A DNA stretch of 64,000 nt, from assembly GCA_041648975.1 (NCBI GenBank), contig JBAZNZ010000003.1, forward strand, positions 9,664 to 73,663, in the 5' to 3' direction. Each line of letters begins with the position of its first letter. Position 1 is the first letter of the stretch. A program made the position numbers and the translations under genes. Below the pieces are notes generated by a model. It worked only from the letters and a program-made list of their open reading frames with translations, was not told the DNA's origin and did no database searches. Below are positions 33,636-60,056 of the stretch, piece after piece. Source of the stretch: Candidatus Omnitrophota bacterium (GTDB lineage: Bacteria; Omnitrophota; Gorgyraeia; 2-01-FULL-45-10).

Positions 33636-34133
33636 ATGAATAGAAAATTGGAGATGGCTCAGGATAAATTCATAGAGAGCATAGGTAAGCTATGCGGCAG
33701 CTTCGGTCTTAACAAATTTGTTGCGCAACTATATGCTGTGCTTTATCTTAGCAACAAGCCGCTGTCTCTGGATGAGATGGCTGAGGAACTCGAAGTCAGT
33801 AAAGGCAGTGTCAGTATTAATATCAGGGAACTGGAGAAATGGGGCGCTGTAAAGAATATATGGGTAAAGGGTTCCAGGAAGGACTATTATGAGGCCGAAC
33901 TTGATATAAAGAAGGTATTTGCCAACAAGCTGAGATCGGCAGTGCAGAAGAGGATAGCGGAAGTATCCAACATGACGGATGAATTCAAGAAGATAACAAA
34001 GTCCGCCGCGACTGAGCTTACCGATGAGGAGAAGGTCATAGCGCAGGTATATGAGGAGCGGTTGAAGAAGATAGAGGAGTTGAAGGCTATGGCTGCGACC
34101 GCGTTGAGCCTCGCGGAAAAATTTCTACAATAG
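33636..34133 (+). CDS. GbsR/MarR-type winged-helix transcriptional regulator
   Basis: FIESIGKLCGSFGLNKFVAQLYAVLYLSNKPLSLDEMAEELEVSKGSVSINIRELEKWGAV matches the GbsR/MarR_2 helix-turn-helix pattern. Confidence 0.6.
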   Translation: MNRKLEMAQDKFIESIGKLCGSFGLNKFVAQLYAVLYLSNKPLSLDEMAEELEVSKGSVSINIRELEKWGAVKNIWVKGSRKDYYEAELDIKKVFANKLRSAVQKRIAEVSNMTDEFKKITKSAATELTDEEKVIAQVYEERLKKIEELKAMAATALSLAEKFLQ

Positions 34134-34142: not shown

Positions 34143-35327
34143 ATGAAAGATTTCGGATTTAGGGTAAGGACAAATTTGAAATACGGGGTAGGCGTTTCAG
34201 CCAGGCTGGGGATATTTGTAAAGGAATTGGGTTTCCATAAGGCCGCGATTATAATAGATGCCGGAGTCAAGAGCCTGGATGCTACCGCAAAAGCCGCCTC
34301 AAGTTTGAAGAATGAAGGGCTGTACGTAGAGACGTTTATAAACGATGTTGCCGAGCCGGACTACGATTATCTCGAGAATTATAAGGCCGGGTTTATGGAT
34401 AAGGGGTTCGAGGTGATAATAGGCATAGGCGGCGGCAGCACAATGGATCTGGCAAAAGGAATAGCCACTCTGGTCACGAATCCGGGCAAGGCTATCGAAT
34501 ATAGAGGGTTTCCGGCGCTGAAGTCCAAGCCGCTTCCAGTGATCGCCATCCCCACCACAGCCGGGACCGGGAGTGAAGCAACGTATAATGCCGTATTTAC
34601 AGACGCCGCCCAGAAGAAGAAGCTCGGCATCAATTCCGAATATAACTTTCCTGTTCTCGCCATTCTGGACCCGTCATTCATCCTGAATTGTCCGAAGAGC
34701 GTCGCCGTATCTTCCGGGATGGACGCGCTTACACATACGCTCGAAAGTTTTGTCCATAAGGACCATACGCCGATATCCAGAATTTTTTCGAAAGAGGCCT
34801 TCAGGTTAATATTTAACAGCCTGATGGTTATGCCTGATAAGCCGCACGATATAGAGATCTGCTCAAGGTTGCAATGGGGGGCATATCTGGCGGGGATAGC
34901 GCTTATCAACGCCGGCTCCGGCCCGTCGGGGGCGCTCTCATATCCGTTGGGTGCGCATTATAAAGTGCCGCACGGGATGGCGGGCGCGGTATTTCTTTCA
35001 ACCGTTACGGAATTTAACGTCTCGCGCGGTTACCAGGATTACGCCGAGCTTTACGACCTGATAGAGGGCTCTGTCAGGGGACTTTCCATAAAAGAGAAGA
35101 ACGAAGCTTTCGTCGAATATATGAAAGCCTTGGACGAGAAGATGGGTATCCCCTCGAAGCTTTCAGCGCTGGGGCTGAAAGAGAGTGATGTCTCTTTTTT
35201 GATAGATCAATATGATGTTTTGAAGAAGGCCATTGAGCAAAACCCTGTCGACATAAGTAAAAAAGACTTATCGGATATGCTCGGCAGGATGAGAGAGGAA
35301 AGGGACCTTAAAGATGCCAGGATTTGA
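34143..35327 (+). CDS. Iron-containing (group III) alcohol dehydrogenase family oxidoreductase (possible KdnB-like sugar oxidase)
   Basis: GGGSTMDLAKGIA glycine-rich motif. His-rich metal site region (ALTHTLESF..., HGMAGA). Confidence 0.8.
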   Translation: MKDFGFRVRTNLKYGVGVSARLGIFVKELGFHKAAIIIDAGVKSLDATAKAASSLKNEGLYVETFINDVAEPDYDYLENYKAGFMDKGFEVIIGIGGGSTMDLAKGIATLVTNPGKAIEYRGFPALKSKPLPVIAIPTTAGTGSEATYNAVFTDAAQKKKLGINSEYNFPVLAILDPSFILNCPKSVAVSSGMDALTHTLESFVHKDHTPISRIFSKEAFRLIFNSLMVMPDKPHDIEICSRLQWGAYLAGIALINAGSGPSGALSYPLGAHYKVPHGMAGAVFLSTVTEFNVSRGYQDYAELYDLIEGSVRGLSIKEKNEAFVEYMKALDEKMGIPSKLSALGLKESDVSFLIDQYDVLKKAIEQNPVDISKKDLSDMLGRMREERDLKDARI

Positions 35328-36489
35328 ATTGGTGGGCAAGGAGGAACGCCAGGCGGTACTCGATATATTTGATAAGTACGGCGGTATCCTGTTCAAGCAC
35401 GGATTTGACGGAATGCGCAACGGTTCTTTTAAAGTCCAGGAATTCCAGAAGGTTTTCGCGAAGAAATTCGGTTCAGGATACGCGCAGGCCGTTACTTCGG
35501 GCTCGGTGGCGCTGAAGGTAGCGCTGCAGGCTCTCGGGATCAGGCCCGGCGACGAGGTGATAACACAGAGCTTCACCTTTGTAGCCACGGTCGAAGCTAT
35601 AATGGAATGCGGCGCCGTCCCCGTAATTACGGAAGTGAACGAGACCCTTACCATGGATCCTGAGGACCTTAAACGCAGGATCACACAGAAGACAAAGGCG
35701 GTGATACCGGTCCATATGTACGGCGCTTCCTGCAACATGGATAAGATAATGAAGATAGCGAAAGACGCGGGGCTCAAGGTCCTGGAAGACAGCGCGCAGG
35801 CGATAGGCGGGAAATATAAGGGAAAGCTCCTGGGCTCGATAGGAGACGCGGGGGCGTTCAGTTTCGATTTCGGGAAAGCGGTCACCTGCGGCGAGGGTGG
35901 GATGATCATTACGGATGACAAAGAGATATACCAGAAGGCGATGGAGTTTGCCGATCACGGCCACCAGTGCAACCCGAACTTCCCCAGGGGCGAGGACACG
36001 AGACGGCAGGCCGGATTCAACTATCGCATGATGGAACTGCAGGGCGCGTTAGGGATCGTCCAGCTTGCCAAGCTTGACTACGCAATCTCTCAGCAGAAAA
36101 AGAATAAAGCGGAGATAATGGCGGGGATTAAAAATGTGAAAGGGCTCAAGTTCAGGTCCTTTAACGACGCGGAAGGCGAGACTGCCGATACGCTTACTTT
36201 TACCGTGGAGAGCGTCGAAAAAGCTAAAAAGTTCGTAGAGAAACTTAAGGAGAAGAAGGTAGGCACTAAGAACCTGCCGGACGCGTTCAATTGGCATTTT
36301 TCGGGGACGTGGGACCATCTGCTCTCCGGCCTGGACCCATATAAAGGGAAAGACCTCACCGGGTTGTGGCCGAGATCTTACGACCATTTGAGGAGGACGA
36401 TAGCGCTCCCGATCAATATAAAGATGTCCGGCGAACAGATCGACAGGATCGTTGGGTCTGTAAAAGAGATAGCTAAAGAGGTTTTATGA
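35314..36489 (+). CDS. DegT-family sugar aminotransferase
   Basis: AVTSGSVALKVAL, ITQSFTFVATVEAI, AFSFDFGKAVTCGEGG (PLP lysine). Confidence 0.85.
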   Translation: MPGFELVGKEERQAVLDIFDKYGGILFKHGFDGMRNGSFKVQEFQKVFAKKFGSGYAQAVTSGSVALKVALQALGIRPGDEVITQSFTFVATVEAIMECGAVPVITEVNETLTMDPEDLKRRITQKTKAVIPVHMYGASCNMDKIMKIAKDAGLKVLEDSAQAIGGKYKGKLLGSIGDAGAFSFDFGKAVTCGEGGMIITDDKEIYQKAMEFADHGHQCNPNFPRGEDTRRQAGFNYRMMELQGALGIVQLAKLDYAISQQKKNKAEIMAGIKNVKGLKFRSFNDAEGETADTLTFTVESVEKAKKFVEKLKEKKVGTKNLPDAFNWHFSGTWDHLLSGLDPYKGKDLTGLWPRSYDHLRRTIALPINIKMSGEQIDRIVGSVKEIAKEVL

Positions 36490-37118
36490 CGTTAGGTATA
36501 ATACCGGCCCGCGGAGGGTCTAAGGGCATACCGCGAAAAAATATAAAGATGGTAGCAGGTAAGCCCCTGATCGCATGGACTATTGAGGCGGCGAAGAAGT
36601 CGAAACTATTGGATCGCTTTGTGGTCTCGACGGACGACGCGGTAATAGCCAATATCGCAAAACGGTGCGGAGCGGACGTTATAAATCGCCCCGCGAGACT
36701 GGCGACGGATAAAGCGACGACGCTTTCCGCGTTGCAGCATGTGCTTTCGCTGATCGACACGGACACGGTAGTGCTGCTCCAACCTACTTCCCCGGTCCGT
36801 AGCCCGGGATTGATAGACAGGTGTATAAAGAAGTTTCGCAGGACGAAAGCGGACAATCTCGCGACAGGATTTATATGCAAATTCATGGAGTATGGCTCGT
36901 ATATAAATAAGAGGCGCCAGGACCTGAAAGGATTTTTCTACGACGACGGCAATGTATATGTTATAAAGGCAGACCTGATAAAGAAGGGAAAGATATTCGG
37001 TAAAAAGGCTGGACGTATATTTACCTCGAAAGAAGAGAACGTAGAGATAGACGATGAATTTGAATTATGGATGGCGGGAGAGATCCTGTCGAAACGCGCC
37101 GGCGGGGGCAGACAGTAA
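36486..37118 (+). CDS. Acylneuraminate cytidylyltransferase family (CMP-nonulosonic acid synthetase; NeuA/LegF-like)
   Basis: IIPARGGSKGIPRKNI CTP_transf_3 signature. ATGA and TAATG overlaps with neighbours. Confidence 0.8.
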   Translation: MTLGIIPARGGSKGIPRKNIKMVAGKPLIAWTIEAAKKSKLLDRFVVSTDDAVIANIAKRCGADVINRPARLATDKATTLSALQHVLSLIDTDTVVLLQPTSPVRSPGLIDRCIKKFRRTKADNLATGFICKFMEYGSYINKRRQDLKGFFYDDGNVYVIKADLIKKGKIFGKKAGRIFTSKEENVEIDDEFELWMAGEILSKRAGGGRQ

Positions 37119-38164
37119 TGCGAAGATATGTTACGATTGCGGGAAGGAAGATAGGAGAAGGCCGGCCGGTATTTATCATAGCCGAGGCCGGCGTGAACCA
37201 TAATGGCAGCCTTGCCATAGCGATGAAGATGGTCGACGCGGCTAAAAACGCCGGCGCCGACGCCGTTAAATTCCAGACCTTTAGGGCAGAGGAGCTTGTG
37301 GTGAAGGACGCGCCGAAAGCCGCTTATCAAAAGAGGGCGGTCCCCGGGAAATCGCAGTTCCAGATGCTCAAGTCGCTTGAGCTCTCCGAAGAAGCGTTTA
37401 AAAGATTATCCGATCACTGCAAAAAAAGAAAGATACTATTCCTCTCTACTCCGTTCGATCTTCAAAGCGCCACTCTCTTGAATAGGCTTGGAGTGTCCGC
37501 CTTTAAGATCAGTTCGGGTGAGATAACCAACACCCCTTTACTAAAACAGGCAGCCGGATACGGGAAACCGATCATCCTTTCTACCGGCATGTCAACTCTA
37601 CGTGAGGTGAGGGAAGCCGTTGATGTAATTTATTCGGCCGGCAACAGGCGCCTGATACTGCTGCACTGCACTTCTAATTATCCGGCGCGTTACGAAGACG
37701 CCAATCTAAGGGCGATCGTTACGCTTCAGAAAAATTTTGACTGTCCGGTAGGATATTCGGATCACACAGAAGGATTGGAGGCGTCGATTGCGGCGACGGC
37801 ATTAGGAGCCTGTGTTATCGAGAGACATTTTACCCTGGACAGAGCCATGAAGGGCCCGGACCATAAGGCGTCCTTAGACGTTAAGGGGCTGGAGGATCTG
37901 GTGAGGTCTGTCAGAAATACCGAAAAGTCCATGGGCGGCGGCATAAAAGCCCCTGCCTCCGCCGAGGAAGAAGTGAAGAGGATAGCAAGGAAGAGCGTCG
38001 TGGCGCTTGAAGATATCCCAAAAGGCCGAACAATAAGACGGAGCATGCTTACGGTGAAGAGGCCAGGGACAGGTTTGAGTCCTAAATACCTGTATATTCT
38101 GGATGGAAAGAAAGCCAAACTACGCATAAAGAAGGACGAGGTCTTGACCTCGGATATGATATGA
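37118..38164 (+). CDS. NeuB-family nonulosonic acid synthase with SAF domain (NeuB/LegI-like)
   Basis: FIIAEAGVNHNGSLAIA, DAVKFQTF, GYSDHTEG, C-terminal SAF region. The track start at 37067 was moved to ATG 37118. Confidence 0.85.
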   Translation: MRRYVTIAGRKIGEGRPVFIIAEAGVNHNGSLAIAMKMVDAAKNAGADAVKFQTFRAEELVVKDAPKAAYQKRAVPGKSQFQMLKSLELSEEAFKRLSDHCKKRKILFLSTPFDLQSATLLNRLGVSAFKISSGEITNTPLLKQAAGYGKPIILSTGMSTLREVREAVDVIYSAGNRRLILLHCTSNYPARYEDANLRAIVTLQKNFDCPVGYSDHTEGLEASIAATALGACVIERHFTLDRAMKGPDHKASLDVKGLEDLVRSVRNTEKSMGGGIKAPASAEEEVKRIARKSVVALEDIPKGRTIRRSMLTVKRPGTGLSPKYLYILDGKKAKLRIKKDEVLTSDMI

Positions 38165-39306
38165 AACGTAAAGTCTGCGTTATAACAGGGTCGCGGTCGG
38201 ATTATGGGATTCTCCAACCGGTGATGAAGGCGATAAAAAAATCTAAGCGCCTGGAACTCTTTGTTATCGCCACTTCCATGCATCTGATGAAGGAATTCGG
38301 CTATACGGTCCGCGAGATAGAGAAAGACGGTTTTCATATAAACAACAGGATAAACATTTCGTATTGGGAGGATACCGGCCATGCAATGGCGTTCTCCGTC
38401 GGGAAGGCCGTATCGATGTTCTCTGACAGTTTTCTCCGGCTGAAGCCCGATATAGTATTGGTGCTGGGCGATAGAGGAGAGATGCTTGCCGCGGCCATCG
38501 CCGCGAATTATATGAATATACCCGTCGCGCACATTCACGGAGGCGAGGTGTCGGGGCACATAGACGGACTTGTCAGGCACGCTATAACGAAGTTGTCCAA
38601 CATACACTTTCCCGCTACGGATAAGGCGAAAGAAAGGATAAAAAAGCTGGGTGAGAGGCCGGATACGGTCTTTAAAGTCGGCGCGCCTGCCCTGGATAGT
38701 GTACTATCCGGCCGTTACGCGGGCAAGAAAGAACTTCTTAAGAAATACGGCCTCAATGACGGTCCGACATTGATCGTGGTCCAGCATCCTGTAAGCGCCG
38801 AAACAGGCAAGTCGGCGTCGCATATGCGGACGACGCTGGAAGCGGTCAAAGAGTTACAGATACAGACTATTGTAATATACTCCAATGCCGACGCCGGAGG
38901 CAGGAAGATGATCGATGTGATAAAAAGATACGAGAGGCATTCGCTCATAAAAGCCTTTAAGAGCATACCGCACGCAGACTACCTGGGGCTTATGAGAATA
39001 TCGTCCGTCCTGGTGGGAAATTCTTCAAGCGGTATTATCGAAGCCGCTTCGTTCAAGCTTCCGGTCGTAAATATTGGCGATCGACAAAGGGGCCGCGAGC
39101 GTTGCGGTAACGTCATAGACGCCGATCATGGGATGAACGCAATTTTAAGGGCGATCAAAAAGGCGCTTTTCGATAAGAAATTCAGGAATAAGGTGAGACA
39201 TTGCAATAATCCTTACGGCGACGGTCACGCAGGGCAACGTATAGCAGACAGACTGGCCGCAATACGCCTGAACAAAGAACTGCTTGTTAAGCAATTGACC
39301 TATTGA
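38161..39306 (+). CDS. UDP/GDP-N-acetylglucosamine 2-epimerase (hydrolysing), NeuC/LegG family
   Basis: VCVITGSRSDYGILQP, HIHGGEVSG, 381 aa. Confidence 0.85.
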   Translation: MKRKVCVITGSRSDYGILQPVMKAIKKSKRLELFVIATSMHLMKEFGYTVREIEKDGFHINNRINISYWEDTGHAMAFSVGKAVSMFSDSFLRLKPDIVLVLGDRGEMLAAAIAANYMNIPVAHIHGGEVSGHIDGLVRHAITKLSNIHFPATDKAKERIKKLGERPDTVFKVGAPALDSVLSGRYAGKKELLKKYGLNDGPTLIVVQHPVSAETGKSASHMRTTLEAVKELQIQTIVIYSNADAGGRKMIDVIKRYERHSLIKAFKSIPHADYLGLMRISSVLVGNSSSGIIEAASFKLPVVNIGDRQRGRERCGNVIDADHGMNAILRAIKKALFDKKFRNKVRHCNNPYGDGHAGQRIADRLAAIRLNKELLVKQLTY

Positions 39307-39314
39307 GGGGCAAA

Positions 39315-39938
39315 ATGAAGAAAAGGGAAAAGATCGTGATATTCGGCGCCGGCGGGCATGGCAGGGTAGTCCTCGATATCCTCGCGGAGGCAGGCGCCGA
39401 TACAGCCGGTTTTATCGATGAGGATATACAAAAGGCAGGCTCTATTATAAACGGTTTTAAGGTCCTGGGAGACTGGAAGTATCTGGAGGGCAGGAAGGAT
39501 CTCTCTGTCGCCCTGGGTATAGGCGATAATGAAATGCGTGAGAAGATATTCAGAAAAGCAAAAAAGTTTGGCCTGGATATCCGCTCAGCCGTACATCCGA
39601 AGGCAGTCATTTCCAGAACGGCAAAACTTGGCGAAGGCGTTGTCATTATGGCCGGGGCGGTGGTCAATACTGGCGCCGCGCTGGAAGACGGGGTTGTGGT
39701 TAATACAGGAGCGACGGTCGATCACGATTGCCGTCTCGGAAGGTTCTGCCAGTTATGGCCCGGTTCGCATCTGGCGGGCACTGTAAGTGTCGGTGAATTT
39801 TCGTATATCGGTACGGGCGCATCCGTTATCAATAATATAAGAATAGGCAGGGAAGTCACAGTGGGCGCAGGGGCCGCGGTCATATCGGATATACCCGATA
39901 ACGTGAAGGCTGTAGGCGTGCCCGCAAAAATTATATAA
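39315..39938 (+). CDS. Hexapeptide-repeat sugar N-acetyltransferase (NeuD/PglD family)
   Basis: IVIFGAGGHGRVVLDIL N-terminal Rossmann-like region, then left-handed beta-helix hexapeptide repeats. The track TTG start at 39303 was moved to ATG 39315, which has a GAGGGG Shine-Dalgarno. Confidence 0.8.
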   Translation: MKKREKIVIFGAGGHGRVVLDILAEAGADTAGFIDEDIQKAGSIINGFKVLGDWKYLEGRKDLSVALGIGDNEMREKIFRKAKKFGLDIRSAVHPKAVISRTAKLGEGVVIMAGAVVNTGAALEDGVVVNTGATVDHDCRLGRFCQLWPGSHLAGTVSVGEFSYIGTGASVINNIRIGREVTVGAGAAVISDIPDNVKAVGVPAKII

Positions 39939-39949
39939 GGAAATATGTC

Positions 39950-41329
39950 ATGAAGCTGAAAAACCTTAAAGATGTCATTGCCGGCGCGGGGTCGTCGATA
40001 AAAGACGTCATGAGACTTATCGACCATTCGGGCTTGAGAGTAGCTTACATAGTAGACGCGCAAAAAAGATTGGCAGGAGCCATAAGCGATAGCGAGATCA
40101 GGAAGGCGATCCTGCGGGGTGTGGACATTCGTAACAAAGCGTTGGATATAGCCAATCCCGACCCGATCGTCTTCCGGGAAGAAGACGCGGCAAATCCTTA
40201 TTCCGCGGAGCGGGCCGTCAAGCGCTTGCTGGAGAAGATGCCGGACAGCCGCTATATTCTTGTCGTTGACAGGAATAGCCGGCCGAAAAAGATCGTGCGC
40301 TGCCGGGCATTCACAAGCGTGGCGAATAAAGAAAAACATGAACATACGGGAAGGAAGATACTTGTGGTGGGCGGCGCGGGATATCTGGGATCTATCCTTG
40401 TAAGAAAGCTTCTCGCGCGCGATATCAAGGTCAGAGTCCTCGATATCCTGATGTACGGGTCAAAATCGGTAGAGGGCCTTCTTAAAAACAGGATGTTCGA
40501 ACTTGTAAATGGCGATATGCGTGACATATCTACAATAGTCAGGGCGCTGTCGGGCGTCGACGCGGTTGTCAACCTTGCGGCGATAGTAGGCGACCCGGCC
40601 TGCAAAAACAGGCCTGAAGCGGCGATAGAGACAAACTACCTCGCGAATAAGGCCTTGGCCGAGGCGTGCAAGTATCACCAGATAAACAGGTTCGTCTATG
40701 CCTCTACGTGCAGCGTGTACGGGACGATGGATGGGAATAAACTACTGGACGAAAATTCCGCCCTCAATCCGGTTTCGCTCTACGCCAGGTCCAAGATACA
40801 TGCCGAGGAGGGGATACTAAGCCTCATGGACGAGAACTTCTCCCCGACCATATTGCGGATGGGGACATTATACGGCTGTTCGCCGAGGATGAGGTTTGAC
40901 CTCGTAGTGAATACAATGACTAAAACAGCGGTGAAGTCAGGCAGGATATCGGTCCATGGAGGCGGTAAACAGTGGCGTCCTATGCTGCATGTCGACGATG
41001 CCGCCGAGGCCTACATAAAATGTCTGGAGGCCCCTATTCACAGGATAAGAGGCGAGATATTCAATGTCGGCTCGGAAGACGAGAACTACAGGATAATCCG
41101 CCTGGCAGAGATAGTGAAGGGGTGTGTACCGGGCTCGAAGCTGGTAATGGAGGGGAAGGCAAATGATCCGAGGAACTATTCGGTCTCATTCGCCAAGATA
41201 AGGAAGGCCCTGAAGTTCAGGCCTGTCGTCAGGATGGAGAAGGGCGTCATGGACATAAAGAAGAAGATAGGCGAGGAGATCGATAACGTGGACGATCCGA
41301 AATATTATAACGTGGAATACAGCCAATGA
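39950..41329 (+). CDS. Fusion of tandem CBS domains with an NAD-dependent epimerase/dehydratase (SDR) domain
   Basis: N-terminal about 120 aa CBS-pair-like region (VMRLIDHSGLRVAYIVD...AISDSEIRKAIL). Then VVGGAGYLGSILVRKL Rossmann and YARSK (YxxxK). Confidence 0.75.
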   Translation: MKLKNLKDVIAGAGSSIKDVMRLIDHSGLRVAYIVDAQKRLAGAISDSEIRKAILRGVDIRNKALDIANPDPIVFREEDAANPYSAERAVKRLLEKMPDSRYILVVDRNSRPKKIVRCRAFTSVANKEKHEHTGRKILVVGGAGYLGSILVRKLLARDIKVRVLDILMYGSKSVEGLLKNRMFELVNGDMRDISTIVRALSGVDAVVNLAAIVGDPACKNRPEAAIETNYLANKALAEACKYHQINRFVYASTCSVYGTMDGNKLLDENSALNPVSLYARSKIHAEEGILSLMDENFSPTILRMGTLYGCSPRMRFDLVVNTMTKTAVKSGRISVHGGGKQWRPMLHVDDAAEAYIKCLEAPIHRIRGEIFNVGSEDENYRIIRLAEIVKGCVPGSKLVMEGKANDPRNYSVSFAKIRKALKFRPVVRMEKGVMDIKKKIGEEIDNVDDPKYYNVEYSQ

Positions 41330-42510
41330 ACCATAAAGAGAAGCCGGCGATATTAGGCGGAAAACCCGTTTTCAAAGAACCGGTCCCCATTACCAGGCCC
41401 ACTATCGGCCGCATAGGGCGCCTGAAGAAAGCGTTTGGGGAGATATTGCGCACCAGGATGATCACGAACTCGGATTACGTCAGGCGTTTCGAATCGAAGC
41501 TGTCGAGGCATATAGGGGTAAAACACGCCGTTGCACTTTCCAGCTGCACAAGCGGGCTCATGCTGATAATGAAAGCGCTTGAGCTGAAGGGTGAGGTGAT
41601 AATGCCGAGCTTCACCTTTCACGCTACTGCCCACGCGGCAGTATGGAACGGCCTTAAGCCGGTATTTGTCGACTGCAATATAGATACCTACAATATTGAC
41701 CCGGACGAAGTGGAAAGATCCATCACATCCAGAACGTCGGCGATAGTCGCAGTGCACATATTCGGGAACCCGCCGGACATAGGAGCCCTGACCAAGATAG
41801 CTAAAAGGCACGGGCTGAAGCTGGTCTTTGATGCCGCCCACGGCCTCGGATCCGCATATAAAGGGAAGAGGGTGGGTTGTTTTGGGGACGCCGAATCGTT
41901 CAGTTTGAGTCCCACCAAACTTCTGACCACCGGCGAGGGCGGCGTAGTGACGACGAATAATGACCGGATCGCCAATTTCGTCCGTATGGGCAGGACGTAT
42001 GGGGATCCTGGTAGTTACGATCCCGCGTTCTCGGGCCTCAGCTCGAGAATGACGGAGTTTTCCGCGCTGCTCGGTATCGAAGGGCTCGACCTCCTGGAAG
42101 AAAACGCAAGACGGAGGAACAGGCTGGCCGGATTGTACAAAGAACTGTTATCCGGGATACCCGGCCTGAGTTTTCAGAAAATAGATAAAAGCCTCCGGTC
42201 GAGCTATAAGGACTTCTCGGTCCTGGTCGATAAGGATATGTTCGGCTTGTCGAGGGACTTACTCTTTGATTCTTTGGCCGCCGAGAACATTAGCGCCAAA
42301 AAATATTTTTATCCTCCTGTACACCGCCAGAGAGCATTCGCCTCTTTCGGCCAGGCCGGCAAAAAGCTAAAAAATACAGAAATACTGTCCGACAACTCAT
42401 TGAGCCTGCCGCTCTATTCCGATATGCCGGAGTCCGACGTAAGTAAGATATGTCTTGCCGTGCGCCGCTCGCATCGTTATGCCCGGGAGATATCGAAGGC
42501 CGAGAGATGA
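41326..42510 (+). CDS. DegT-family sugar aminotransferase
   Basis: PAILGGKPVF, SCTSGLMLIM, SLSPTKLLTTGEGG. Confidence 0.85.
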   Translation: MNHKEKPAILGGKPVFKEPVPITRPTIGRIGRLKKAFGEILRTRMITNSDYVRRFESKLSRHIGVKHAVALSSCTSGLMLIMKALELKGEVIMPSFTFHATAHAAVWNGLKPVFVDCNIDTYNIDPDEVERSITSRTSAIVAVHIFGNPPDIGALTKIAKRHGLKLVFDAAHGLGSAYKGKRVGCFGDAESFSLSPTKLLTTGEGGVVTTNNDRIANFVRMGRTYGDPGSYDPAFSGLSSRMTEFSALLGIEGLDLLEENARRRNRLAGLYKELLSGIPGLSFQKIDKSLRSSYKDFSVLVDKDMFGLSRDLLFDSLAAENISAKKYFYPPVHRQRAFASFGQAGKKLKNTEILSDNSLSLPLYSDMPESDVSKICLAVRRSHRYAREISKAER

Positions 42511-43664
42511 AAAAGATATGTTTTTTCTTACAGACGCCTCTCACAAGACGCGATTATGAAAGATTCGGAGTAGAGTTGCTTAGAAATATTGGGTTTGAGG
42601 TATTGTTCCTGGATATGACGGCAGTCATGAATCCTGATTATAAGTCATCAGAAAAGATTGCTACGGATAGTACAGTATACTGTAATACTTACGATGATGC
42701 AGATAAATTTCTGAGGGATAGCGGGGATATGTTCGGTATAGACATGATAGGCGCCCGCGTGATAAACGTATTTTTTTACAGGATATTGAAAAGACATAAG
42801 GTACGCTATGCCGCTTTTTGTGCTAATAGTATTCCGACCTCTTATTCCTGGAACAGCAAAGGCATGGATCTTATCGGAAATATAAAAATATTATTTGGAA
42901 GCATAGTTTGGCGGCTTCCGAATTCATTGTTGGGGCTGCCTACGCCAGATTATGTCTTAGCCGGCGGAGAGAGATATTCTCCAAAACGACCTCAACCCGG
43001 CAGTGCCACGCGGGTAATATGGGCACATTCACTTGATTACGATAAATATCTGGAATATTGTTTGAGCGACCGCATTCCTCTTATTGACGGAGGGTATGCC
43101 GTTTTTCTTGACGAATATTTTCCGCTACATCCAGATTATAATATAAAAGGCGGTATGCATAAAAATCCTTTTAGCGAGGACAGGCAAGGCGAATATTATA
43201 CAGGAATGAACAGGTTTTTTTCTTATCTGGAAAACCGTATTGGCATACCTATCGCTATCGCTGCACACCCGAAGTCGAAGTACGAAGACATGCCGGGTGT
43301 GTTCGGAGAGCGTAAGATGTTTAAAGGTAAAACTATAGAATTGGTGTCGCGCGCCAGATATGTAATAGCACACGTCAGCACTTCCGTAAATTTTGCGGTA
43401 TTGTTCAGAAAACCGATAGTATTCGTTACCATGAATGCGATGGAAAGTACGCCTTATGGTCCTTTAATATCGAATTTCGCATCTCAATTTAATGAGAGGG
43501 TTGTCAATATAGATCTTGACCCTGCCGGTTGGCCTGCGAAAGAACCGGTTATTGTGGCAGAGGGGCCGTATAAGGAATACGTTAGGCGTTTTATCAAAAC
43601 CGACGGTTCTCCGCAACTTCCGTTCTGGCAGATAGTGGGCGACAGGCTAAAGGCTTATAACTGA
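42507..43664 (+). CDS. Hypothetical protein; candidate GT-B-like (sialyl/NulO- or capsule-type) transferase
   Basis: No signature motif recognised. Two His-Pro dipeptides (FPLHPDY, AAHPKSKY). Sits just after the CMP-nonulosonate pathway. ATGA overlap places the start at 42507. Confidence 0.3.
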   Translation: MKKICFFLQTPLTRRDYERFGVELLRNIGFEVLFLDMTAVMNPDYKSSEKIATDSTVYCNTYDDADKFLRDSGDMFGIDMIGARVINVFFYRILKRHKVRYAAFCANSIPTSYSWNSKGMDLIGNIKILFGSIVWRLPNSLLGLPTPDYVLAGGERYSPKRPQPGSATRVIWAHSLDYDKYLEYCLSDRIPLIDGGYAVFLDEYFPLHPDYNIKGGMHKNPFSEDRQGEYYTGMNRFFSYLENRIGIPIAIAAHPKSKYEDMPGVFGERKMFKGKTIELVSRARYVIAHVSTSVNFAVLFRKPIVFVTMNAMESTPYGPLISNFASQFNERVVNIDLDPAGWPAKEPVIVAEGPYKEYVRRFIKTDGSPQLPFWQIVGDRLKAYN

Positions 43665-43665: not shown

Positions 43666-45633
43666 ATGACTAAGATGGCAGTATTCGAAAAGTTGAGTTT
43701 CATCTCGCTTCCCATCGCGGCGGGTTATCTGGCCATGGGATATGAGGTGGGCTATTTCGATAAGAACGTATCGTCCGCTTTTTCAGTGTTATACGGATAT
43801 TTTCATCGCACCGGGAAGATCAAGAAAATGCCGCCGGAAGACTTTACTCTTGCGATGCAGTATGAAGCCCATAACGCGGCGCTTGACATCGTAGAGAGCG
43901 CATATGAGGTGCGCTTCAGTAAGAGCGGTGCCATAAGGCTTATAGCAAGGATGATGGGTTCCGACCTGGTCCATTCTATTTACAAAAAAGCCCTCCTTGC
44001 AAGGATATACGATTATTATCGTATGCAGTCGGTGTTGAATAAGATGGCGGTTGACGCCGGTCCCGGCAGCCGGCTTTGTTTTGTCGCCTGCGATTATATG
44101 GTCATGGAGAAGATGACCGCTTTCGGCAAGCCGCGCGGCGGTCTCGATAAACGTTTTTTCATATCATGGTGGTCGCGCATATTGTCATTAGCTGCGGGGA
44201 TGGGCGGTTATATAGCAAATATATTCTGCCTTTTTGCCTTTCCCGTATGGATATCGGCCAAAGTGAAAAAGGTAGACCGTGACAAGCCGCTGGTAAAGGA
44301 CTATCAGGCCGGTATCCGCGTATATCAGGGAGATTTCGGGATGTGCGGCAAATACCGCTCCATGGATTTTATTCTCGATGGCAGGGACCTCAATGCCTCG
44401 AATGTCCTTTTCTGCGCGGAGACGTATTTGTCCGGGGACTACGTTTCCGAGATAAGAAAACGTGGATACAGCCTTGTTGTCCTGCCGGAGATACTGTGCC
44501 GTGTCAGCCGCGCATTCTTAAAGGAAAAGGTATTCAAAGTCTTTCTGCCTTTCTGGGCCCAGTCCATGGCCGCCTCTTTGACGGAAAGCGGTTTTATAAC
44601 CAAGACGACCGTGACCATATTACGCGATTATCTCCTGTGGTCCAGGTTCCTGGATGAGTTCCGTATTAAGCACTACGCAGTCTACAACAATTATGAACGT
44701 GGGCACATAACGAGGAACATCCTCCTTTCGAAGAGGGACGTCACTACCTGGTATTATATACATTCCGGTCACAATCCGGACCTCTTCAATGCCCCGGACG
44801 AACCCGATTACAGACATACATTCTTCTCCTATATGTATTATGACAGGTTCCTGTCTTGGGGCGGCAGGGTGACGCGGTATTATTCATCTTTCATTACCCA
44901 TATTGGGAAGTTTGAGAACTCGGGATGCCTGTGGTCGGAGCATGTGAGGAAGGCGGCGGAGGACAAAGAACTTTATTCCTCAAAGCGAAGGTCTATTCTC
45001 AAAAGCCTGGGCAGGGACTCGGGCAGGATAGTGGCCGTATTCGATACGACGGTAGGAGCGGATGCGCCCCTGCAGCTTGAGGACATGGCCGCTTTTGTGA
45101 CTGGCATAGTGAGGCTTATGGATGAAGACCCTGATATCGTGGTCGTTTTCAAGGAAAAATGGCTGTGGAATGAATTGCTGGAGCGTGAACCCGGGATAGC
45201 GTCTTATTATCAGAAGCTTTATGAGCATGCGCGCTGTTACCGTACAGGAGGCAGCAACAGGGACTCCACGGAAGTGATGGCTGTTTCCGATCTTGTCATA
45301 TCCGCTCCTTTTACGGCACCTACAACGGAAGCGCTCGGCGCCCGGAAAAAGGCGATCTATTTCGATGCCACGAACAGGTTCAGGGGTCGTTTCTACGACA
45401 CGTTCCCGAAGCTGGTTGCTCATAATTATAATGAGTTGAAAGGCCTTGTACGTTACTGGCTGGACGAGGCTTCGGACAAGGATTTCAGCGACTATCTCGA
45501 CAGGCATATAAAAGGCAAGATAGACGCTTATGTCGACGGCAGGGGAATAACGAGATTCCGCGCCTTTCTGTGCGGAAAGGAAGAGGCAGCCAAGCATGGT
45601 GAAGATAGCTACGCCCATATCGGGTCTTTTTAA
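43666..45633 (+). CDS. Hypothetical large protein (655 aa), function unknown
   Basis: Long uninterrupted ORF with uniform codon usage and no recognisable motif. Confidence 0.3.
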   Translation: MTKMAVFEKLSFISLPIAAGYLAMGYEVGYFDKNVSSAFSVLYGYFHRTGKIKKMPPEDFTLAMQYEAHNAALDIVESAYEVRFSKSGAIRLIARMMGSDLVHSIYKKALLARIYDYYRMQSVLNKMAVDAGPGSRLCFVACDYMVMEKMTAFGKPRGGLDKRFFISWWSRILSLAAGMGGYIANIFCLFAFPVWISAKVKKVDRDKPLVKDYQAGIRVYQGDFGMCGKYRSMDFILDGRDLNASNVLFCAETYLSGDYVSEIRKRGYSLVVLPEILCRVSRAFLKEKVFKVFLPFWAQSMAASLTESGFITKTTVTILRDYLLWSRFLDEFRIKHYAVYNNYERGHITRNILLSKRDVTTWYYIHSGHNPDLFNAPDEPDYRHTFFSYMYYDRFLSWGGRVTRYYSSFITHIGKFENSGCLWSEHVRKAAEDKELYSSKRRSILKSLGRDSGRIVAVFDTTVGADAPLQLEDMAAFVTGIVRLMDEDPDIVVVFKEKWLWNELLEREPGIASYYQKLYEHARCYRTGGSNRDSTEVMAVSDLVISAPFTAPTTEALGARKKAIYFDATNRFRGRFYDTFPKLVAHNYNELKGLVRYWLDEASDKDFSDYLDRHIKGKIDAYVDGRGITRFRAFLCGKEEAAKHGEDSYAHIGSF

Positions 45634-46363
45634 AGATAAGGCCGCCGCGCTCTCTATATCGGCGCATTCGGACTGCCTGGAGTTCCGCGACCATAGCCTG
45701 GGCTCAGAGCTTAAGAAGCAGGAGATATTTCATTGCGACCTGCAACCTATACATGTTTTTAGCGATAAAGAGACAGGTTACTTGCGGCATGTCAAAAAAA
45801 ATAAGCCGGGATTGAAGCTTGTTACTTTTCACATCGCTTCATGCTGCGACAGGCCCAGGCTTAAAGGCGGCATGTTCGAGCCAGGCGGCAGGCGTTACAC
45901 GAGACAGGAGTTGCTGAGGACGGCCGGGCGCAATTTCAGGGCGATAAAGAGGATATTTGGCAGTAAGACGAAGATCGCCGTCGAGAACAACAACTTTTAT
46001 CCTACGGGCGCGTATAAATATATCACGGACGCGGATTTCGTTTCGGAGATGGTCCGCGGGAATGCCATATATTTCGTGTTTGACATCGCGCACGGCGTGA
46101 TAACGTCCCGAAACAGGGGGATCGACTACCGCGGATACAAGAGGGCGCTTCCGATGGACAGGGCGGTGCAGTTGCATGTAAGCGCCCCGGGATCGCGACA
46201 CGGCATTGCCTATGACGCGCATAGGCTGCCGGGCGATAATGAGTATGGGGAGGTCAGGGAGCTGCTGGCGGAATATCCCGGTATAGAATATGTGACCGTG
46301 GAGTATTATAAAGGCGCCAAGGATCTTGTCGCCTCACTGGAAAGGATGAGAAGGTTGCTATGA
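45596..46363 (+). CDS. Hypothetical protein; possible DUF692/xylose-isomerase-like TIM-barrel (MNIO-like) enzyme
   Basis: PISGLF, CLEFRDHS, LVTFHIAS, IAVENNNFYP and FVFDIAHG loosely parallel the conserved DUF692 blocks (GVGLR, WVEIHSEN, LSLHGVGLS, LENVS, LLDVNH). Confidence 0.3.
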   Translation: MVKIATPISGLFKDKAAALSISAHSDCLEFRDHSLGSELKKQEIFHCDLQPIHVFSDKETGYLRHVKKNKPGLKLVTFHIASCCDRPRLKGGMFEPGGRRYTRQELLRTAGRNFRAIKRIFGSKTKIAVENNNFYPTGAYKYITDADFVSEMVRGNAIYFVFDIAHGVITSRNRGIDYRGYKRALPMDRAVQLHVSAPGSRHGIAYDAHRLPGDNEYGEVRELLAEYPGIEYVTVEYYKGAKDLVASLERMRRLL

Positions 46364-47130: not shown

Positions 47131-47147
47131 GAGAAGGCGGGTGCGAT

Positions 47148-52060: not shown

Positions 52061-52062
52061 GC

Positions 52063-58816: not shown

Positions 58817-58819
58817 GAG

Positions 58820-59611: not shown

Positions 59612-59615
59612 CCGT

Positions 59616-60056
59616 ATGGAAAAGGTCTCCGCGCTGAAAATAGAGGACTTTAAGGAAGGCAAGAGCTATTCGTTCGAAAAGACCGTGACGGCCGCGGACA
59701 TCGACGTCTTTGCCGCTATAACGGGCGATATCAGTCCTCTGCATATGAGCGATGAGTTTGCCCGGGCTAGAGGGTTCAAAGGCAGGGTCGCGCACGGCGT
59801 GCTCCTCGCGGGATTTGTGTCGAAGATTATAGGCGTGGACTTTCCCGGCGAGAACTGCCTCCTACAGACCATGAGCCTGAAATTTTCCACGCCATGTTAC
59901 GCCGGAGACACATTGCGTATCACCGCGTCCGTCAGCCAGGTTTCAACCGCCGCAGGCGCAGTGGTCCTTGATATAGTGATAGAAAATGCGGCAGACCGCG
60001 TAACTGTGGCAAAAGGGAAAGCGCAGGTAGGTTTTACGAAGACGACAGGAAAATAA
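59616..60056 (+). CDS. MaoC-like (R)-specific enoyl-CoA/ACP hydratase, hot-dog fold
   Basis: ITGDISPLHMSDEFA, RVAHGVL. Confidence 0.8.
   Translation: MEKVSALKIEDFKEGKSYSFEKTVTAADIDVFAAITGDISPLHMSDEFARARGFKGRVAHGVLLAGFVSKIIGVDFPGENCLLQTMSLKFSTPCYAGDTLRITASVSQVSTAAGAVVLDIVIENAADRVTVAKGKAQVGFTKTTGK

What the first reader, a model, noticed from the sequence alone, without database searches (positions are those of the whole stretch)
34143..42510. Legionaminic-acid-like nonulosonate pathway with unusual additions: Fe-ADH plus aminotransferase pair and a CBS-SDR fusion
This block carries the full Leg/Neu-type gene set. 
- Downstream of the Fe-ADH/DegT pair are a DegT aminotransferase (35314), a NeuA-type CMP-synthetase (36486), a NeuB with SAF domain (37118), a hydrolysing 2-epimerase NeuC/LegG (38161) and a NeuD/PglD hexapeptide acetyltransferase (39315). 
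- The block ends with a dehydratase/epimerase SDR (39950) and another DegT (41326). 

Two features are atypical. First, the pathway opens with an iron-type alcohol dehydrogenase directly followed by an aminotransferase. This arrangement is reminiscent of the KdnB/KdnA pair that oxidises then aminates a sugar position (8-amino-Kdo chemistry), suggesting an extra amino group or oxidation on the product. Second, the 4,6-dehydratase-like SDR is fused to an N-terminal CBS-domain pair, implying adenosyl-ligand or energy-status regulation of entry into the pathway.
Basis: partly seen in the sequence, partly recalled or inferred. Interest (0 to 1): 0.6.

Follow-up and report, generated by a model that had tools for sequence, protein, structure and literature searches.

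The report
Sialic-acid-like sugar pathway adding extra amine
An operon in an uncultured Omnitrophota bacterium, found nearly unchanged in several other uncultured phyla, appears to build a sialic-acid-like nine-carbon sugar that keeps its terminal hydroxyl and then converts it to an amino group, a sugar type not yet described.

Summary
Positions 34143-42510 hold eight overlapping or closely spaced genes: Fe-ADH, DegT aminotransferase, cytidylyltransferase, NeuB, NeuC, hexapeptide acetyltransferase, CBS-SDR fusion and a second DegT.

- **Aminotransferase 35314:** it is KdnA-like. KdnA is its best solved relative (285 bits, 42% identity; next hit 182 bits).
- **Fe-ADH:** it is not a KdnB orthologue, but an Fe-ADH lies directly upstream of KdnA-like genes in at least 59 of 81 related loci.
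- **CBS pair:** it is real.
- **SDR:** it is not 4,6-dehydratase-like. It is closest to Cj1427, a sugar-nucleotide C4-dehydrogenase, and carries an invariant S-T-C-S where dehydratases have T-D-E.

The same cassette recurs in Omnitrophota, Margulisiibacteriota and unassigned metagenome contigs, with looser versions in Gottesmanbacteria, Spirochaetota and methanogens. The KdnA family splits into a NeuB-linked clade, which includes this gene, and a KdsB-linked clade that probably makes Kdo8N.

Best model (inferred, not shown): C4 oxidation without 6-deoxygenation, amination, N-acetylation, hydrolysing 2-epimerisation and NeuB condensation. The Kdo8N-type oxidation and transamination of the retained terminal alcohol then follow, giving a 5,7,9-triamino nonulosonate. 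I found no paper describing this. It is a new variant of a known kind.

The parts
33636..34133 (+). Small HTH regulator (MarR/GbsR-CudC-like), probably part of the unit
   Evidence: It matches HTH_11, MarR_2 and TrmB and CudC at 86 bits, below cut-off. It ends 9 nt before the Fe-ADH gene. A homologue (219 bits) lies directly upstream of the Fe-ADH in L001. HTH genes also lie upstream in L004, L005 and L006.
34143..35327 (+). Iron-type (group III) alcohol dehydrogenase, the proposed oxidase of the terminal alcohol of the nonulosonate
   Evidence: Fe-ADH 136 bits and ADH_Fe_C 118 bits. Best solved relatives are methanol, 1,3-propanediol and lactaldehyde enzymes (196-158 bits); KdnB scores only 84 bits. 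It sits directly upstream of the KdnA-like gene in at least 59 of 81 loci. GGGS, Asp and two His ligands are kept, but the third His ligand (FucO His263) is Gly, as in the whole NeuB-linked clade.
35314..36489 (+). KdnA-like PLP aminotransferase (AT1), the proposed aminating enzyme for the oxidised side-chain carbon
   Evidence: DegT 296 bits. Best solved relative is KdnA 5k8b at E 1e-83 and 285 bits, with the next hit at 182 bits; identity is 42% over 338 aa. JGI names its homologues Kdo8N transaminase. It falls in the NeuB-linked clade of the family.
36486..37118 (+). Short (210 aa) NeuA/PseF-like cytidylyltransferase, the CMP-activating enzyme
   Evidence: CTP_transf_3 99 bits; PseF model 133 bits, below its cut-off of 206. 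The same 206-212 aa protein follows AT1 in L001, L004, L005, L006 and L087, and a 220 aa version in L090.
37118..38164 (+). NeuB-family nonulosonate synthase with SAF domain
   Evidence: NeuB 336 bits plus SAF; TIGR03569 457 bits, cut-off 400. Best solved relatives are B. subtilis SpsE (221 bits) and N. meningitidis NeuB (209 bits).
38161..39306 (+). Hydrolysing NDP-sugar 2-epimerase (NeuC/LegG type)
   Evidence: TIGR03568 446 bits, cut-off 236. Best solved relatives are the A. baumannii GDP/UDP-diacetylbacillosamine 2-epimerase (244 bits) and the human GNE epimerase domain (225 bits).
39315..39938 (+). PglD/PerB-type N-acetyltransferase acting on an NDP-4-amino sugar
   Evidence: PglD_N plus hexapeptide; TIGR03570 228 bits, cut-off 161. 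Best solved relatives are PerB (170 bits), the Neisseria PglB acetyltransferase domain (160 bits) and PglD (101 bits). A formyltransferase takes its place in L001, and one is added in L005 and L090.
39950..40312 (+). CBS pair (Bateman module) at the N-terminus of the SDR
   Evidence: Pfam CBS 31.7 bits for residues 10-55. The AF2 model shows two beta-alpha-beta-beta-alpha units with pLDDT 83-94, followed by a disordered linker at 124-132. It aligns to the CBS pair of PtmE-like nucleotidyltransferases at E about 1e-12. PF00571 is recorded for most homologues.
40352..41329 (+). Extended SDR domain, Cj1427-like NDP-sugar C4-dehydrogenase and not a 4,6-dehydratase
   Evidence: Best solved relative by sequence is Cj1427 6vo6 (150 bits) and by fold (TM 0.91, E 2e-27). 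GGAGYLGS and YxxxK are present. S-T-C-S-V-Y-G is invariant across 48 homologues in place of T-D-E.
41326..42510 (+). DesI-like NDP-4-keto-sugar C4 aminotransferase (AT2)
   Evidence: DegT 345 bits; DesI model 316 bits, below its cut-off of 650. Best solved relative is DesI 2po3 at 243 bits. It always follows the CBS-SDR in the cassette.
42507..43664 (+). Uncharacterised GT-B fold protein, a candidate CMP-nonulosonate transferase
   Evidence: No Pfam or NCBIfam match. The search found only 129 relatives, with 'hypothetical protein' as the only name among those listed and one carrying a GT52 Pfam hit. His254-Pro255 and Ser291 are invariant. The AF2 model (pLDDT 91) has two Rossmann domains and matches only generic GT-B enzymes at TM about 0.5. 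Homologues lie within a few kb downstream of the NulO genes in L001, L005, L006, L008, L009, L013 and L077.
43666..45633 (+). PFTS-motif polysaccharide biosynthesis protein
   Evidence: TIGR04417 253 bits, cut-off 100. A homologue (412 bits) lies in the Methanolobus locus L077.

Best explanation
This is a conserved operon for a CMP-activated nonulosonic acid. It is built on the legionaminic-acid logic but without 6-deoxygenation, and it finishes with the chemistry that makes Kdo8N.

Proposed order of steps:
1. The CBS-SDR oxidises C4 of an NDP-HexNAc (UDP- or GDP-GlcNAc) and releases the 4-keto sugar with its 6-OH intact.
2. AT2 aminates C4.
3. The PglD/PerB-type enzyme N-acetylates the new amine. 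In sister loci a formyltransferase replaces it or is added.
4. The NeuC/LegG-type enzyme removes the nucleotide and epimerises C2.
5. NeuB condenses the product with PEP, giving a 5,7-diacylamido-3,5,7-trideoxy-nonulosonate that still has its 9-OH.
6. The Fe-ADH oxidises the terminal alcohol to an aldehyde, and the KdnA-like aminotransferase converts it to an amine. This parallels KdnB/KdnA acting on C8 of Kdo. The product is a 5,7,9-triamino-3,5,7,9-tetradeoxy-nonulosonate.
7. The short cytidylyltransferase makes the CMP-sugar, and the GT-B protein at 42507 probably transfers it.

The CBS pair sits on the first committed enzyme and probably gates entry by binding a nucleotide-type ligand.

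Shown here: gene content, family assignments, motif states and conservation of the cassette. Inferred: substrates, order of steps, position of the third amine, and the CBS ligand.
For: - **KdnA relationship.** AT1's best solved relative is KdnA by about 100 bits.
- **Conserved pairing.** An Fe-ADH lies immediately upstream of AT1 homologues in at least 59 of 81 loci.
- **Two clades.** In one clade the pair sits beside NeuB, NeuC and a NeuA/PseF-like cytidylyltransferase. This clade includes methanogens, Actinomycetota and CPR bacteria, groups not known to make Kdo (my knowledge, not tested). In the other clade it sits beside bona fide KdsB.
- **SDR is not a dehydratase.** Its closest relative by sequence and fold is Cj1427, which releases a 4-keto sugar without dehydration (PMC10680097). 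S-T-C-S is invariant where dehydratases have T-D-E.
- **Same SDR clade elsewhere.** Every SDR scoring at least 148 bits to the window's SDR domain in these loci, with or without the CBS pair, has S-T/S-C-S.
- **No dehydratase inside cassettes.** No dehydratase-motif SDR lies within the cassettes. Those present in L009 and L090 are followed by their own DegT, and in L090 also by their own NeuB and cytidylyltransferase.
- **Parallel in L089.** A CBS-SDR is followed by an RmlC-like cupin and an SDR-NeuB fusion, matching the Cj1427 oxidase-epimerase-reductase scheme.
- **Acetyltransferase type.** Its closest solved relatives are NDP-4-amino-sugar N-acetyltransferases.
- **Swapping at the acyl step.** A formyltransferase replaces or joins the acetyltransferase next to SDR/AT2 in L001, L005 and L090.
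- **Recurrence.** The full cassette is in the window, L001, L004, L005, L006, L009, L087 and L090.
- **Minimal module.** Fe-ADH-AT1-NeuB-CTase occurs in a Marinimicrobia genome with no sugar-nucleotide SDR or second aminotransferase among the genes flanking it.
Against: - There is no biochemical or mass-spectrometric evidence.
- The position of the third amine is inferred by analogy only. An Fe-ADH could oxidise a secondary alcohol at C8 or C4 instead.
- A dehydratase could be encoded outside the 64-kb window, since the contig is 104 kb.
- The Fe-ADH lacks one canonical metal ligand, so its chemistry may differ from that of standard members.
- CBS-SDR/AT2 also occur without the Fe-ADH/AT1 pair in L088, so the two modules are separable.
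- NeuB and NeuC could not be placed in Leg or Neu clades with the references available.
- The nucleotide carrier is unknown, and the window holds no nucleotidyltransferase of the PtmE type.
Confidence: 0.5

Rival explanations
1. The pathway makes a true 9-deoxy legionaminic-type sugar, with the dehydratase encoded elsewhere or the SDR dehydrating through unusual residues. The Fe-ADH/AT1 pair then oxidises and aminates the secondary alcohol at C8. The product would be a 5,7,8-triamino-pentadeoxy nonulosonate of the kind I recall being reported from Tenacibaculum maritimum (from memory, not checked here).
For: The six-gene Leg-type set is complete at family level. NeuC's best solved relative is a diacetylbacillosamine 2-epimerase. 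NeuB's best solved relative is SpsE, the B. subtilis Leg synthase (PMC7439481). The three-ligand metal site of the Fe-ADH resembles that of polyol dehydrogenases acting on secondary alcohols (plus my knowledge of glycerol dehydrogenase).
Against: The SDR family invariably lacks the Asp/Glu pair and matches a non-dehydrating C4-dehydrogenase best. No dehydratase-type SDR lies in the cassette in any of eight loci. KdnA, the closest characterised relative of AT1, aminates a terminal aldehyde.
Confidence: 0.17
2. Two independent pathways share one operon. NeuC, NeuB and the cytidylyltransferase make ordinary Neu5Ac, which Fe-ADH/AT1 convert to 9-amino-9-deoxy-Neu5Ac. Separately, CBS-SDR, AT2 and the acetyltransferase make an unrelated NDP-4-acetamido-4-deoxy-hexose for the same glycan.
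For: Both modules occur apart. Fe-ADH-AT1-NeuB-CTase occurs without SDR/AT2 in L022. NeuB-NeuC-acetyltransferase-CBS-SDR-AT2 occurs without Fe-ADH/AT1 in L088. The NeuB and NeuC models pass the Neu-type equivalog cut-offs.
Against: In L088 the SDR/AT2/acetyltransferase still sit directly beside NeuC and NeuB. In L089 the SDR partner is physically fused to NeuB. Fixed gene order and overlapping genes across phyla argue for one pathway.
Confidence: 0.18
3. The Fe-ADH/AT1 pair makes Kdo8N for the lipopolysaccharide core, as in Shewanella, and only happens to lie next to nonulosonate genes.
For: JGI annotates AT1 homologues as Kdo8N transaminase. A sister clade of the pair lies next to KdsB. The window also encodes a KdsB-subfamily enzyme at 58820-59611.
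Against: The window's AT1 belongs to the NeuB-linked clade, not the KdsB-linked clade. AT1 overlaps the NeuA-like cytidylyltransferase gene by 4 nt. The same arrangement occurs in methanogenic archaea, Actinomycetota and CPR bacteria, groups not known to make Kdo (my knowledge, not tested).
Confidence: 0.04

Closest known systems
CMP-legionaminic acid pathway (C. jejuni LegB/C/H/G/I/F; B. subtilis SpsM/C/D/G/E/F)
   Same: It has the same six enzyme roles from the same families: SDR on an NDP-HexNAc, C4 aminotransferase, PglD-type N-acetyltransferase, hydrolysing 2-epimerase, NeuB-type synthase and cytidylyltransferase (PMC7439481).
   Different: The first enzyme is not a 4,6-dehydratase, so the 9-deoxy feature that defines Leg is not expected. 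An extra Fe-ADH/KdnA-like pair is present. The SDR carries a CBS pair.
Kdo8N pathway of Shewanella oneidensis (KdnB oxidase plus KdnA transaminase)
   Same: An Fe-ADH-family oxidase is encoded next to a KdnA-family aminotransferase (42% identity) and a cytidylyltransferase for a 2-keto-3-deoxy sugar acid. The logic is alcohol to carbonyl to amine.
   Different: The Fe-ADH belongs to a different subfamily from KdnB (84 against 196 bits) and lacks one His ligand. The genomic partners are NeuB, NeuC and NeuA-like rather than KdsB, so the likely substrate is a nine-carbon acid.
Cj1427 / Cj1430 / Cj1428 GDP-heptose modification system of C. jejuni
   Same: The SDR domain's best match by sequence and fold is Cj1427, a C4-dehydrogenase that hands a free 4-keto sugar nucleotide to downstream enzymes, including a PLP enzyme. 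L089 reproduces the oxidase plus cupin epimerase plus reductase layout.
   Different: Identity is only 31-32% in the structural alignment. Here the downstream enzyme is an aminotransferase, the context is nonulosonate synthesis, and a CBS pair is fused. Dependence on alpha-ketoglutarate is unknown.
PtmE-type CBS-nucleotidyltransferases of legionaminic acid clusters
   Same: They carry the same kind of N-terminal CBS pair (26-29% identity, E about 1e-12), placed on the enzyme that commits a sugar to a nonulosonate pathway.
   Different: Here the catalytic domain is an SDR rather than a nucleotidyltransferase, and the window has no PtmE-like gene.

Membership tests
Legionaminic acid biosynthesis (Leg pathway) | An NDP-GlcNAc 4,6-dehydratase (LegB/PglF/SpsM type) that creates the 6-deoxy, later 9-deoxy, position | tested here: not met
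   The SDR has S-T-C-S-V-Y-G instead of T-D-E or T-D-K, invariant in 48 homologues. It scores 99 bits on the LegB model against a cut-off of 475. No dehydratase for this pathway was found: the only motif hit in the window, S-T-S-E at 4558, has a UDP-glucuronate-decarboxylase-type motif and lies near a UDP-glucose dehydrogenase gene.
Legionaminic acid biosynthesis (Leg pathway) | C4 aminotransferase followed by a PglD/LegH-type N-acetyltransferase | tested here: met
   AT2 is DegT (345 bits) with DesI as best solved relative; it scores 189 bits on the LegC model, below the cut-off of 420. The acetyltransferase passes TIGR03570 and is closest to PerB, PglB and PglD.
Legionaminic acid biosynthesis (Leg pathway) | Hydrolysing 2-epimerase, NeuB-type synthase and CMP-synthetase | tested here: met
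   TIGR03568 446 bits against 236; TIGR03569 457 bits against 400; CTP_transf_3 99 bits. These models do not separate Leg from Neu.
Kdo8N system (KdnB/KdnA) | KdnA-type PLP aminotransferase | tested here: met
   KdnA 5k8b is the top solved relative at 285 bits and 42% identity.
Kdo8N system (KdnB/KdnA) | KdnB-type oxidase | tested here: inconclusive
   An Fe-ADH family member is adjacent and conserved. It is closer to methanol, propanediol and lactaldehyde enzymes than to KdnB (196 against 84 bits).
Kdo8N system (KdnB/KdnA) | Acts on Kdo, with KdsB/Kdo genomic context | tested here: not met
   The adjacent cytidylyltransferase is NeuA/PseF-like and NeuB follows it. The KdsB-linked loci form a separate clade.
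Cj1427-type NDP-sugar C4-dehydrogenase | Extended SDR with Ser/Thr-Tyr-Lys triad, no dehydratase acid/base pair, and best fold match to Cj1427 | tested here: met
   GGAGYLGS, T253 and Y278-x3-K282 are present. Foldseek gives TM 0.91 and E 2e-27 to 6vo6/6vo8.
Cj1427-type NDP-sugar C4-dehydrogenase | Releases the 4-keto product and recycles tightly bound NADH with alpha-ketoglutarate | not testable with these tools
   This needs an enzyme assay. The property is known for Cj1427 (PMC10680097).
CBS-pair (Bateman) regulated enzymes | Two tandem CBS motifs forming one module | tested here: met
   Pfam CBS 31.7 bits for motif 1. The AF2 model shows two beta-alpha-beta-beta-alpha units.
CBS-pair (Bateman) regulated enzymes | Binds an adenosyl or other nucleotide ligand that changes activity | not testable with these tools
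   The G-x-x-S-D-S-E-I-R segment, with G43, D47 and R51 invariant, lies where I recall the ribose-binding motif of CBS domains to be (the motif itself is from memory). Binding was not tested.
Canonical Neu5Ac pathway (NeuC/NeuB/NeuA plus NeuD) | The hexapeptide protein is a sialate O-acetyltransferase (NeuD) | tested here: inconclusive
   TIGR03570 covers both NeuD and PglD. All of its closest solved relatives are NDP-4-amino-sugar N-acetyltransferases.

The most novel reading that the evidence does not exclude
The cassette makes a class of nonulosonic acid not yet described: 5,7,9-triamino-3,5,7,9-tetradeoxy-nonulosonate, with 7-acetyl or 7-formyl variants between loci. This sugar, or simpler 9-amino relatives, would be used by Omnitrophota, Margulisiibacteriota, CPR bacteria, Spirochaetota and methanogens. 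Loci with only some of these genes suggest the same for Marinimicrobia and Actinomycetota, and possibly for Prochlorococcus and SAR11 cells. The CBS pair on the first enzyme would serve as a nucleotide or CMP-sugar sensor, analogous to CMP-Neu5Ac feedback on animal GNE.
Probability: 0.4. Interest if true: 0.75.

Novelty: new variant of a known kind. Interest (0 to 1): 0.62.

Why it matters
Nonulosonic acids cap cell-surface glycans and help decide recognition by phages, hosts and immune systems. Every well-established bacterial 5,7-diamino nonulosonate I know of is 9-deoxy.

A route that keeps the terminal hydroxyl and then swaps it for an amine would add a new, charge-altering member to the family, because the free amine would offset the carboxylate. 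It would also show that the Kdo8N chemistry was reused on nine-carbon sugars.

The prediction is concrete: a specific mass and a specific first-step product. One carrier of the Fe-ADH/KdnA-like/NeuB module is a cultured organism, Methanolobus psychrotolerans YSF-03, so the prediction can be tested directly.

The analysis also flags a widespread annotation error, since homologues of AT1 are labelled Kdo8N transaminase in organisms not known to make Kdo. It further predicts Kdo8N itself in Desulfobacterota.

Tried and rejected
- **Leg versus Neu placement of NeuB and NeuC.** Comparison with solved structures was not decisive: SpsE 221 against N. meningitidis NeuB 209 bits, and A. baumannii Leg-type epimerase 244 against human GNE 225 bits. 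No reference set of characterised LegI and LegG sequences was available.
- **Literature.** Searches for KdnA/KdnB with nonulosonic, triamino nonulosonic, Kdo8N with Fe-ADH, and 9-amino-9-deoxy with Leg/Pse found nothing relevant. The Vibrionaceae cluster survey and the mass-spectrometry surveys do not mention such genes or a three-nitrogen backbone.
- **Papers not held.** The KdnA/KdnB and Cj1427 structure papers were unavailable, so substrate-contacting residues could not be mapped.
- **Second CBS motif.** Pfam did not detect it. The structure model settled the point.
- **Truncated cytidylyltransferase.** Rejected, because a 206-212 aa product recurs in five sister loci and a 220 aa one in L090.
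- **Fe-ADH as a decayed gene.** Rejected, because the His-to-Gly change is shared by the whole NeuB-linked clade.
- **GT-B protein at 42507.** The fold search gave only generic GT-B matches. Calling it a sialyltransferase-like enzyme rests on the His-Pro motif and on context.

Full report
**Setting**

The window is a Candidatus Omnitrophota metagenome-assembled contig. The aminotransferase at 35314 is identical to an NCBI protein from a 104-kb Omnitrophota contig. All convincing ORFs lie on the + strand. The whole 64 kb is one glycan-biosynthesis region with glycosyltransferases, many B12-binding radical SAM enzymes, methyltransferases, two NeuB genes and three cytidylyltransferases.

**Check of the observation**

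- NeuB (TIGR03569, 457 bits), NeuC (TIGR03568, 446 bits) and the hexapeptide acetyltransferase (TIGR03570, 228 bits) pass NCBIfam's curated cut-offs.
- The two DegT proteins, the Fe-ADH and the cytidylyltransferase pass only the Pfam family thresholds.
- Neighbouring genes overlap by 1-14 nt or are at most 11 nt apart, so the block is an operon.
- It probably extends on both sides. A small HTH regulator lies 9 nt upstream. Downstream lie an unannotated 385-aa protein (42507-43664) and a PFTS-motif polysaccharide protein (43666-45633; TIGR04417).

**The Fe-ADH/aminotransferase pair**

The aminotransferase at 35314 (AT1) is a clear relative of KdnA, the Kdo8N transaminase of Shewanella.
- KdnA is its best solved relative at 285 bits. 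The next hit scores 182 bits.
- Identity is 42% over 338 residues.
- JGI already names many of its homologues Kdo8N transaminase.

The Fe-ADH is not a KdnB orthologue. It scores 84 bits to KdnB, against 196 bits to methanol dehydrogenase and 158-175 bits to propanediol and lactaldehyde enzymes.

The pairing itself is conserved. I scanned one genome per species with an AT1 alignment and added metagenome contigs. This gave 89 loci with an AT1 homologue, 81 of them with enough upstream sequence to judge. An Fe-ADH lies within 400 bp upstream in at least 59 of those 81.

A neighbour-joining tree, read together with gene context, splits the family into two groups.
- **NeuB-linked clade.** The pair lies beside NeuB, usually with NeuC and a NeuA/PseF-like cytidylyltransferase. 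The window's gene belongs here. The clade also includes Spirochaetota, Magnetovibrio, Gottesmanbacteria, Marinimicrobia, Bacteroidota, Actinomycetota, Methanoregula and the cultured Methanolobus psychrotolerans. KdnA-like genes beside NeuB also occur in Arcobacteraceae, Prochlorococcus and Pelagibacteraceae, but no Fe-ADH was detected in those loci (L013, L020, L067).
- **KdsB-linked clade.** This is mainly Desulfobacterota. No NeuB lies within 10 kb, and where a cytidylyltransferase is adjacent it passes the KdsB cut-offs. This looks like genuine Kdo8N synthesis outside Shewanella.

Archaea, Actinomycetota and CPR bacteria are not known to make Kdo (my knowledge, not tested here). In the NeuB-linked clade the substrate is therefore most likely the nine-carbon acid.

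**The CBS-SDR**

The CBS pair is real.
- Pfam detects the first motif above threshold.
- The AlphaFold model (mean pLDDT 88.7) shows two beta-alpha-beta-beta-alpha units in residues 1-121. A disordered linker follows, then the SDR.
- The region aligns with the CBS pair of PtmE-like CBS-nucleotidyltransferases found in sister loci.

The fusion is a widespread, uncharacterised family. All 120 listed relatives (46-67% identical) are annotated only as epimerase/dehydratase. They come from Omnitrophota, Margulisiibacteriota, Saganbacteria, Peregrinibacteria, Daviesbacteria, CPR3 and Nanoarchaeota.

The SDR domain is not dehydratase-like.
- Its best solved relative by sequence (150 bits) and by fold (TM 0.91) is Cj1427.
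- Cj1427 oxidises C4 of GDP-heptose and releases the 4-keto sugar to downstream enzymes without dehydration (PMC10680097).
- RmlB-type dehydratases in the same alignment read S-T-D-E-V-Y-G. This family reads S-T-C-S-V-Y-G, with Ser252, Cys254, Ser255, Tyr257 and Gly258 invariant in 48 homologues.
- CBS-less SDRs of the same clade (S-T-C-S-N-Y-G) accompany the KdnA-like gene in Spirochaetota, Magnetovibrio, Hyphomicrobiales and Pelagibacteraceae.
- A motif scan found no dehydratase-type SDR inside any cassette. Those present nearby are followed by their own DegT (L009, L090), and in L090 also by a separate NeuB and cytidylyltransferase, or belong to dTDP-rhamnose genes.
- In a Nanoarchaeota contig the CBS-SDR is followed by an RmlC-like cupin and an SDR fused to NeuB. 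This is the Cj1427/Cj1430/Cj1428 layout attached to a nonulosonate synthase.

**The other enzymes**

- AT2 is closest to DesI, a C4 aminotransferase for a 4-keto sugar nucleotide.
- The hexapeptide enzyme is closest to PerB, the Neisseria PglB acetyltransferase domain and PglD. All of these are N-acetyltransferases for NDP-4-amino sugars. The SDR, AT2 and acetyltransferase therefore form an oxidise-aminate-acylate trio on a sugar nucleotide.
- In sister loci the acetyltransferase is replaced by a formyltransferase (L001), or joined by a formyltransferase and a PIG-L deacetylase (L005, L090). This is the kind of variation reported for a Leg-type cluster in Kuenenia.

**Conservation**

The order Fe-ADH, AT1, short cytidylyltransferase, NeuB, NeuC, acyl- or formyltransferase, CBS-SDR, AT2 recurs in the window and in L001, L004, L005, L006, L009, L087 and L090. 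In those loci AT1 identity falls to about 55% and CBS-SDR identity to about 49%.

The two additions are separable.
- L088 (Peregrinibacteria) has NeuB-NeuC-acetyltransferase-CBS-SDR-AT2 without the pair.
- L022 (Marinimicrobia) has Fe-ADH-AT1-NeuB-cytidylyltransferase without an SDR or AT2.

**Model**

Two independent lines point the same way.
1. A first enzyme that should leave the 6-OH in place.
2. An enzyme pair whose characterised relatives convert a terminal CH2OH to CH2NH2 on a 2-keto-3-deoxy acid.

I therefore propose a 5,7-diacylamido nonulosonate that keeps its 9-OH and is then aminated at C9 before CMP activation. The CBS pair sits on the committing enzyme here, and on the nucleotidyltransferase in PtmE-type pathways. 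That placement fits a role in gating entry, but its ligand is unknown.

The protein at 42507 is a reasonable candidate for the transferase.
- It has a confident GT-B fold.
- Its small family has invariant His-Pro and Ser residues. From memory, these recall the HP motif of bacterial sialyltransferases.
- Homologues lie downstream of the nonulosonate genes in seven other loci.

**Caveats**

- Everything about substrates and positions is inference.
- The Fe-ADH of the NeuB-linked clade has lost the third canonical metal ligand (FucO His263 to Gly, Ala or Ser), while the KdsB-linked clade keeps it. This is unexplained, and it leaves room for oxidation of a secondary alcohol (C8) instead.
- A dehydratase could lie outside the window.
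- NeuB and NeuC could not be assigned to Leg or Neu clades.
- The rivals, scored in the structured fields, are an 8-amino Leg derivative, two separate pathways in one operon, and Kdo8N synthesis.

**Novelty**

I found no paper that links KdnA- or KdnB-like genes, or a Cj1427-like oxidase, with nonulosonate synthesis. I also found none describing a 9-amino or three-nitrogen nonulosonate backbone. The library does not cover most subscription journals, so this absence is weak evidence.

All the parts belong to known families, and the novelty lies in how they are combined. I rate it a new variant of a known kind, with moderately high interest.

Noticed in passing
window 34143-35327; L001-L011, L015, L021, L022, L077, L087, L090: In the Fe-ADHs of the NeuB-linked clade, the third canonical metal ligand (FucO His263) is replaced by Gly, Ala or Ser (motif G-S-G-P-S-G-A-L-S-Y-P-L-G). 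The KdsB-linked Desulfobacterota partners and the Actinomycetota partners keep the His. The meaning is unknown.
   Followed up: partly
L018, L024, L042, L055, L063, L082, L086 (Desulfobacterota and one unclassified MAG, including the cultured Desulfogranum japonicum DSM 18378): KdnA-like aminotransferase genes lie next to cytidylyltransferases that pass the KdsB cut-offs, most of them with an Fe-ADH directly upstream. This predicts Kdo8N in lipopolysaccharide well outside Shewanella.
   Followed up: partly
window 45596-54110: This is a second nonulosonate-type gene set. It holds an MNIO-like protein, a classical SDR, a SAF-less 290-aa NeuB (47127-47999), a WecD-like GNAT with a long N-terminal extension, an aldo-keto reductase, a GFO/IDH/MocA oxidoreductase, an unknown 371-aa protein, a PseF equivalog (52057-52782, 319 bits) and a 443-aa DegT. 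No PseB-type dehydratase is present anywhere in the window.
   Followed up: partly
window 58046-63573: This is a third sugar-acid set: an HpcH/HpaI-type aldolase, a cytidylyltransferase that passes KdsB subfamily cut-offs (58820-59611), a MaoC dehydratase, a PhpK-like B12 radical SAM methyltransferase and an FkbH-domain protein. The product is unknown.
   Followed up: no
window 5462, 13860, 20486, 24254, 29191, 31418, 54107, 60056: The cluster holds eight radical SAM genes of the B12-dependent type: seven with a B12-binding domain, and a PhpK-like one at 60056 in which Pfam saw only the radical SAM domain. One of them (20486-23191, 901 aa) is fused to a GT4 glycosyltransferase.
   Followed up: no
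L089 2838-7473 (Nanoarchaeota contig): A CBS-SDR is followed by an RmlC/FdtA-like cupin, a 672-aa SDR-NeuB-SAF fusion and a cytidylyltransferase. This looks like an oxidase-epimerase-reductase route feeding directly into a nonulosonate synthase.
   Followed up: no
window 39950-41329, residue Cys254: The Cys in S-T-C-S-V-Y-G is invariant across the CBS-SDR family and is also present in the CBS-less relatives. It occupies the position of the dehydratase Asp. Cj1427 has Asn there. A possible catalytic role was not explored.
   Followed up: no
window 42507-43664 and 43666-45633; L077 11898-16968: The unannotated GT-B protein and the PFTS-motif protein are both also present downstream of the nonulosonate genes in Methanolobus. 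An ABC transporter lies between them in L077, and ABC transporter genes also lie next to the Fe-ADH in L006 and L022.
   Followed up: partly
L004 17211-18748; L088 5009-6399: HisH/HisF-like glutamine amidotransferase and cyclase pairs lie beside the cassette, immediately after AT2 in L004. From memory, such pairs form acetamidino groups on nonulosonates.
   Followed up: no
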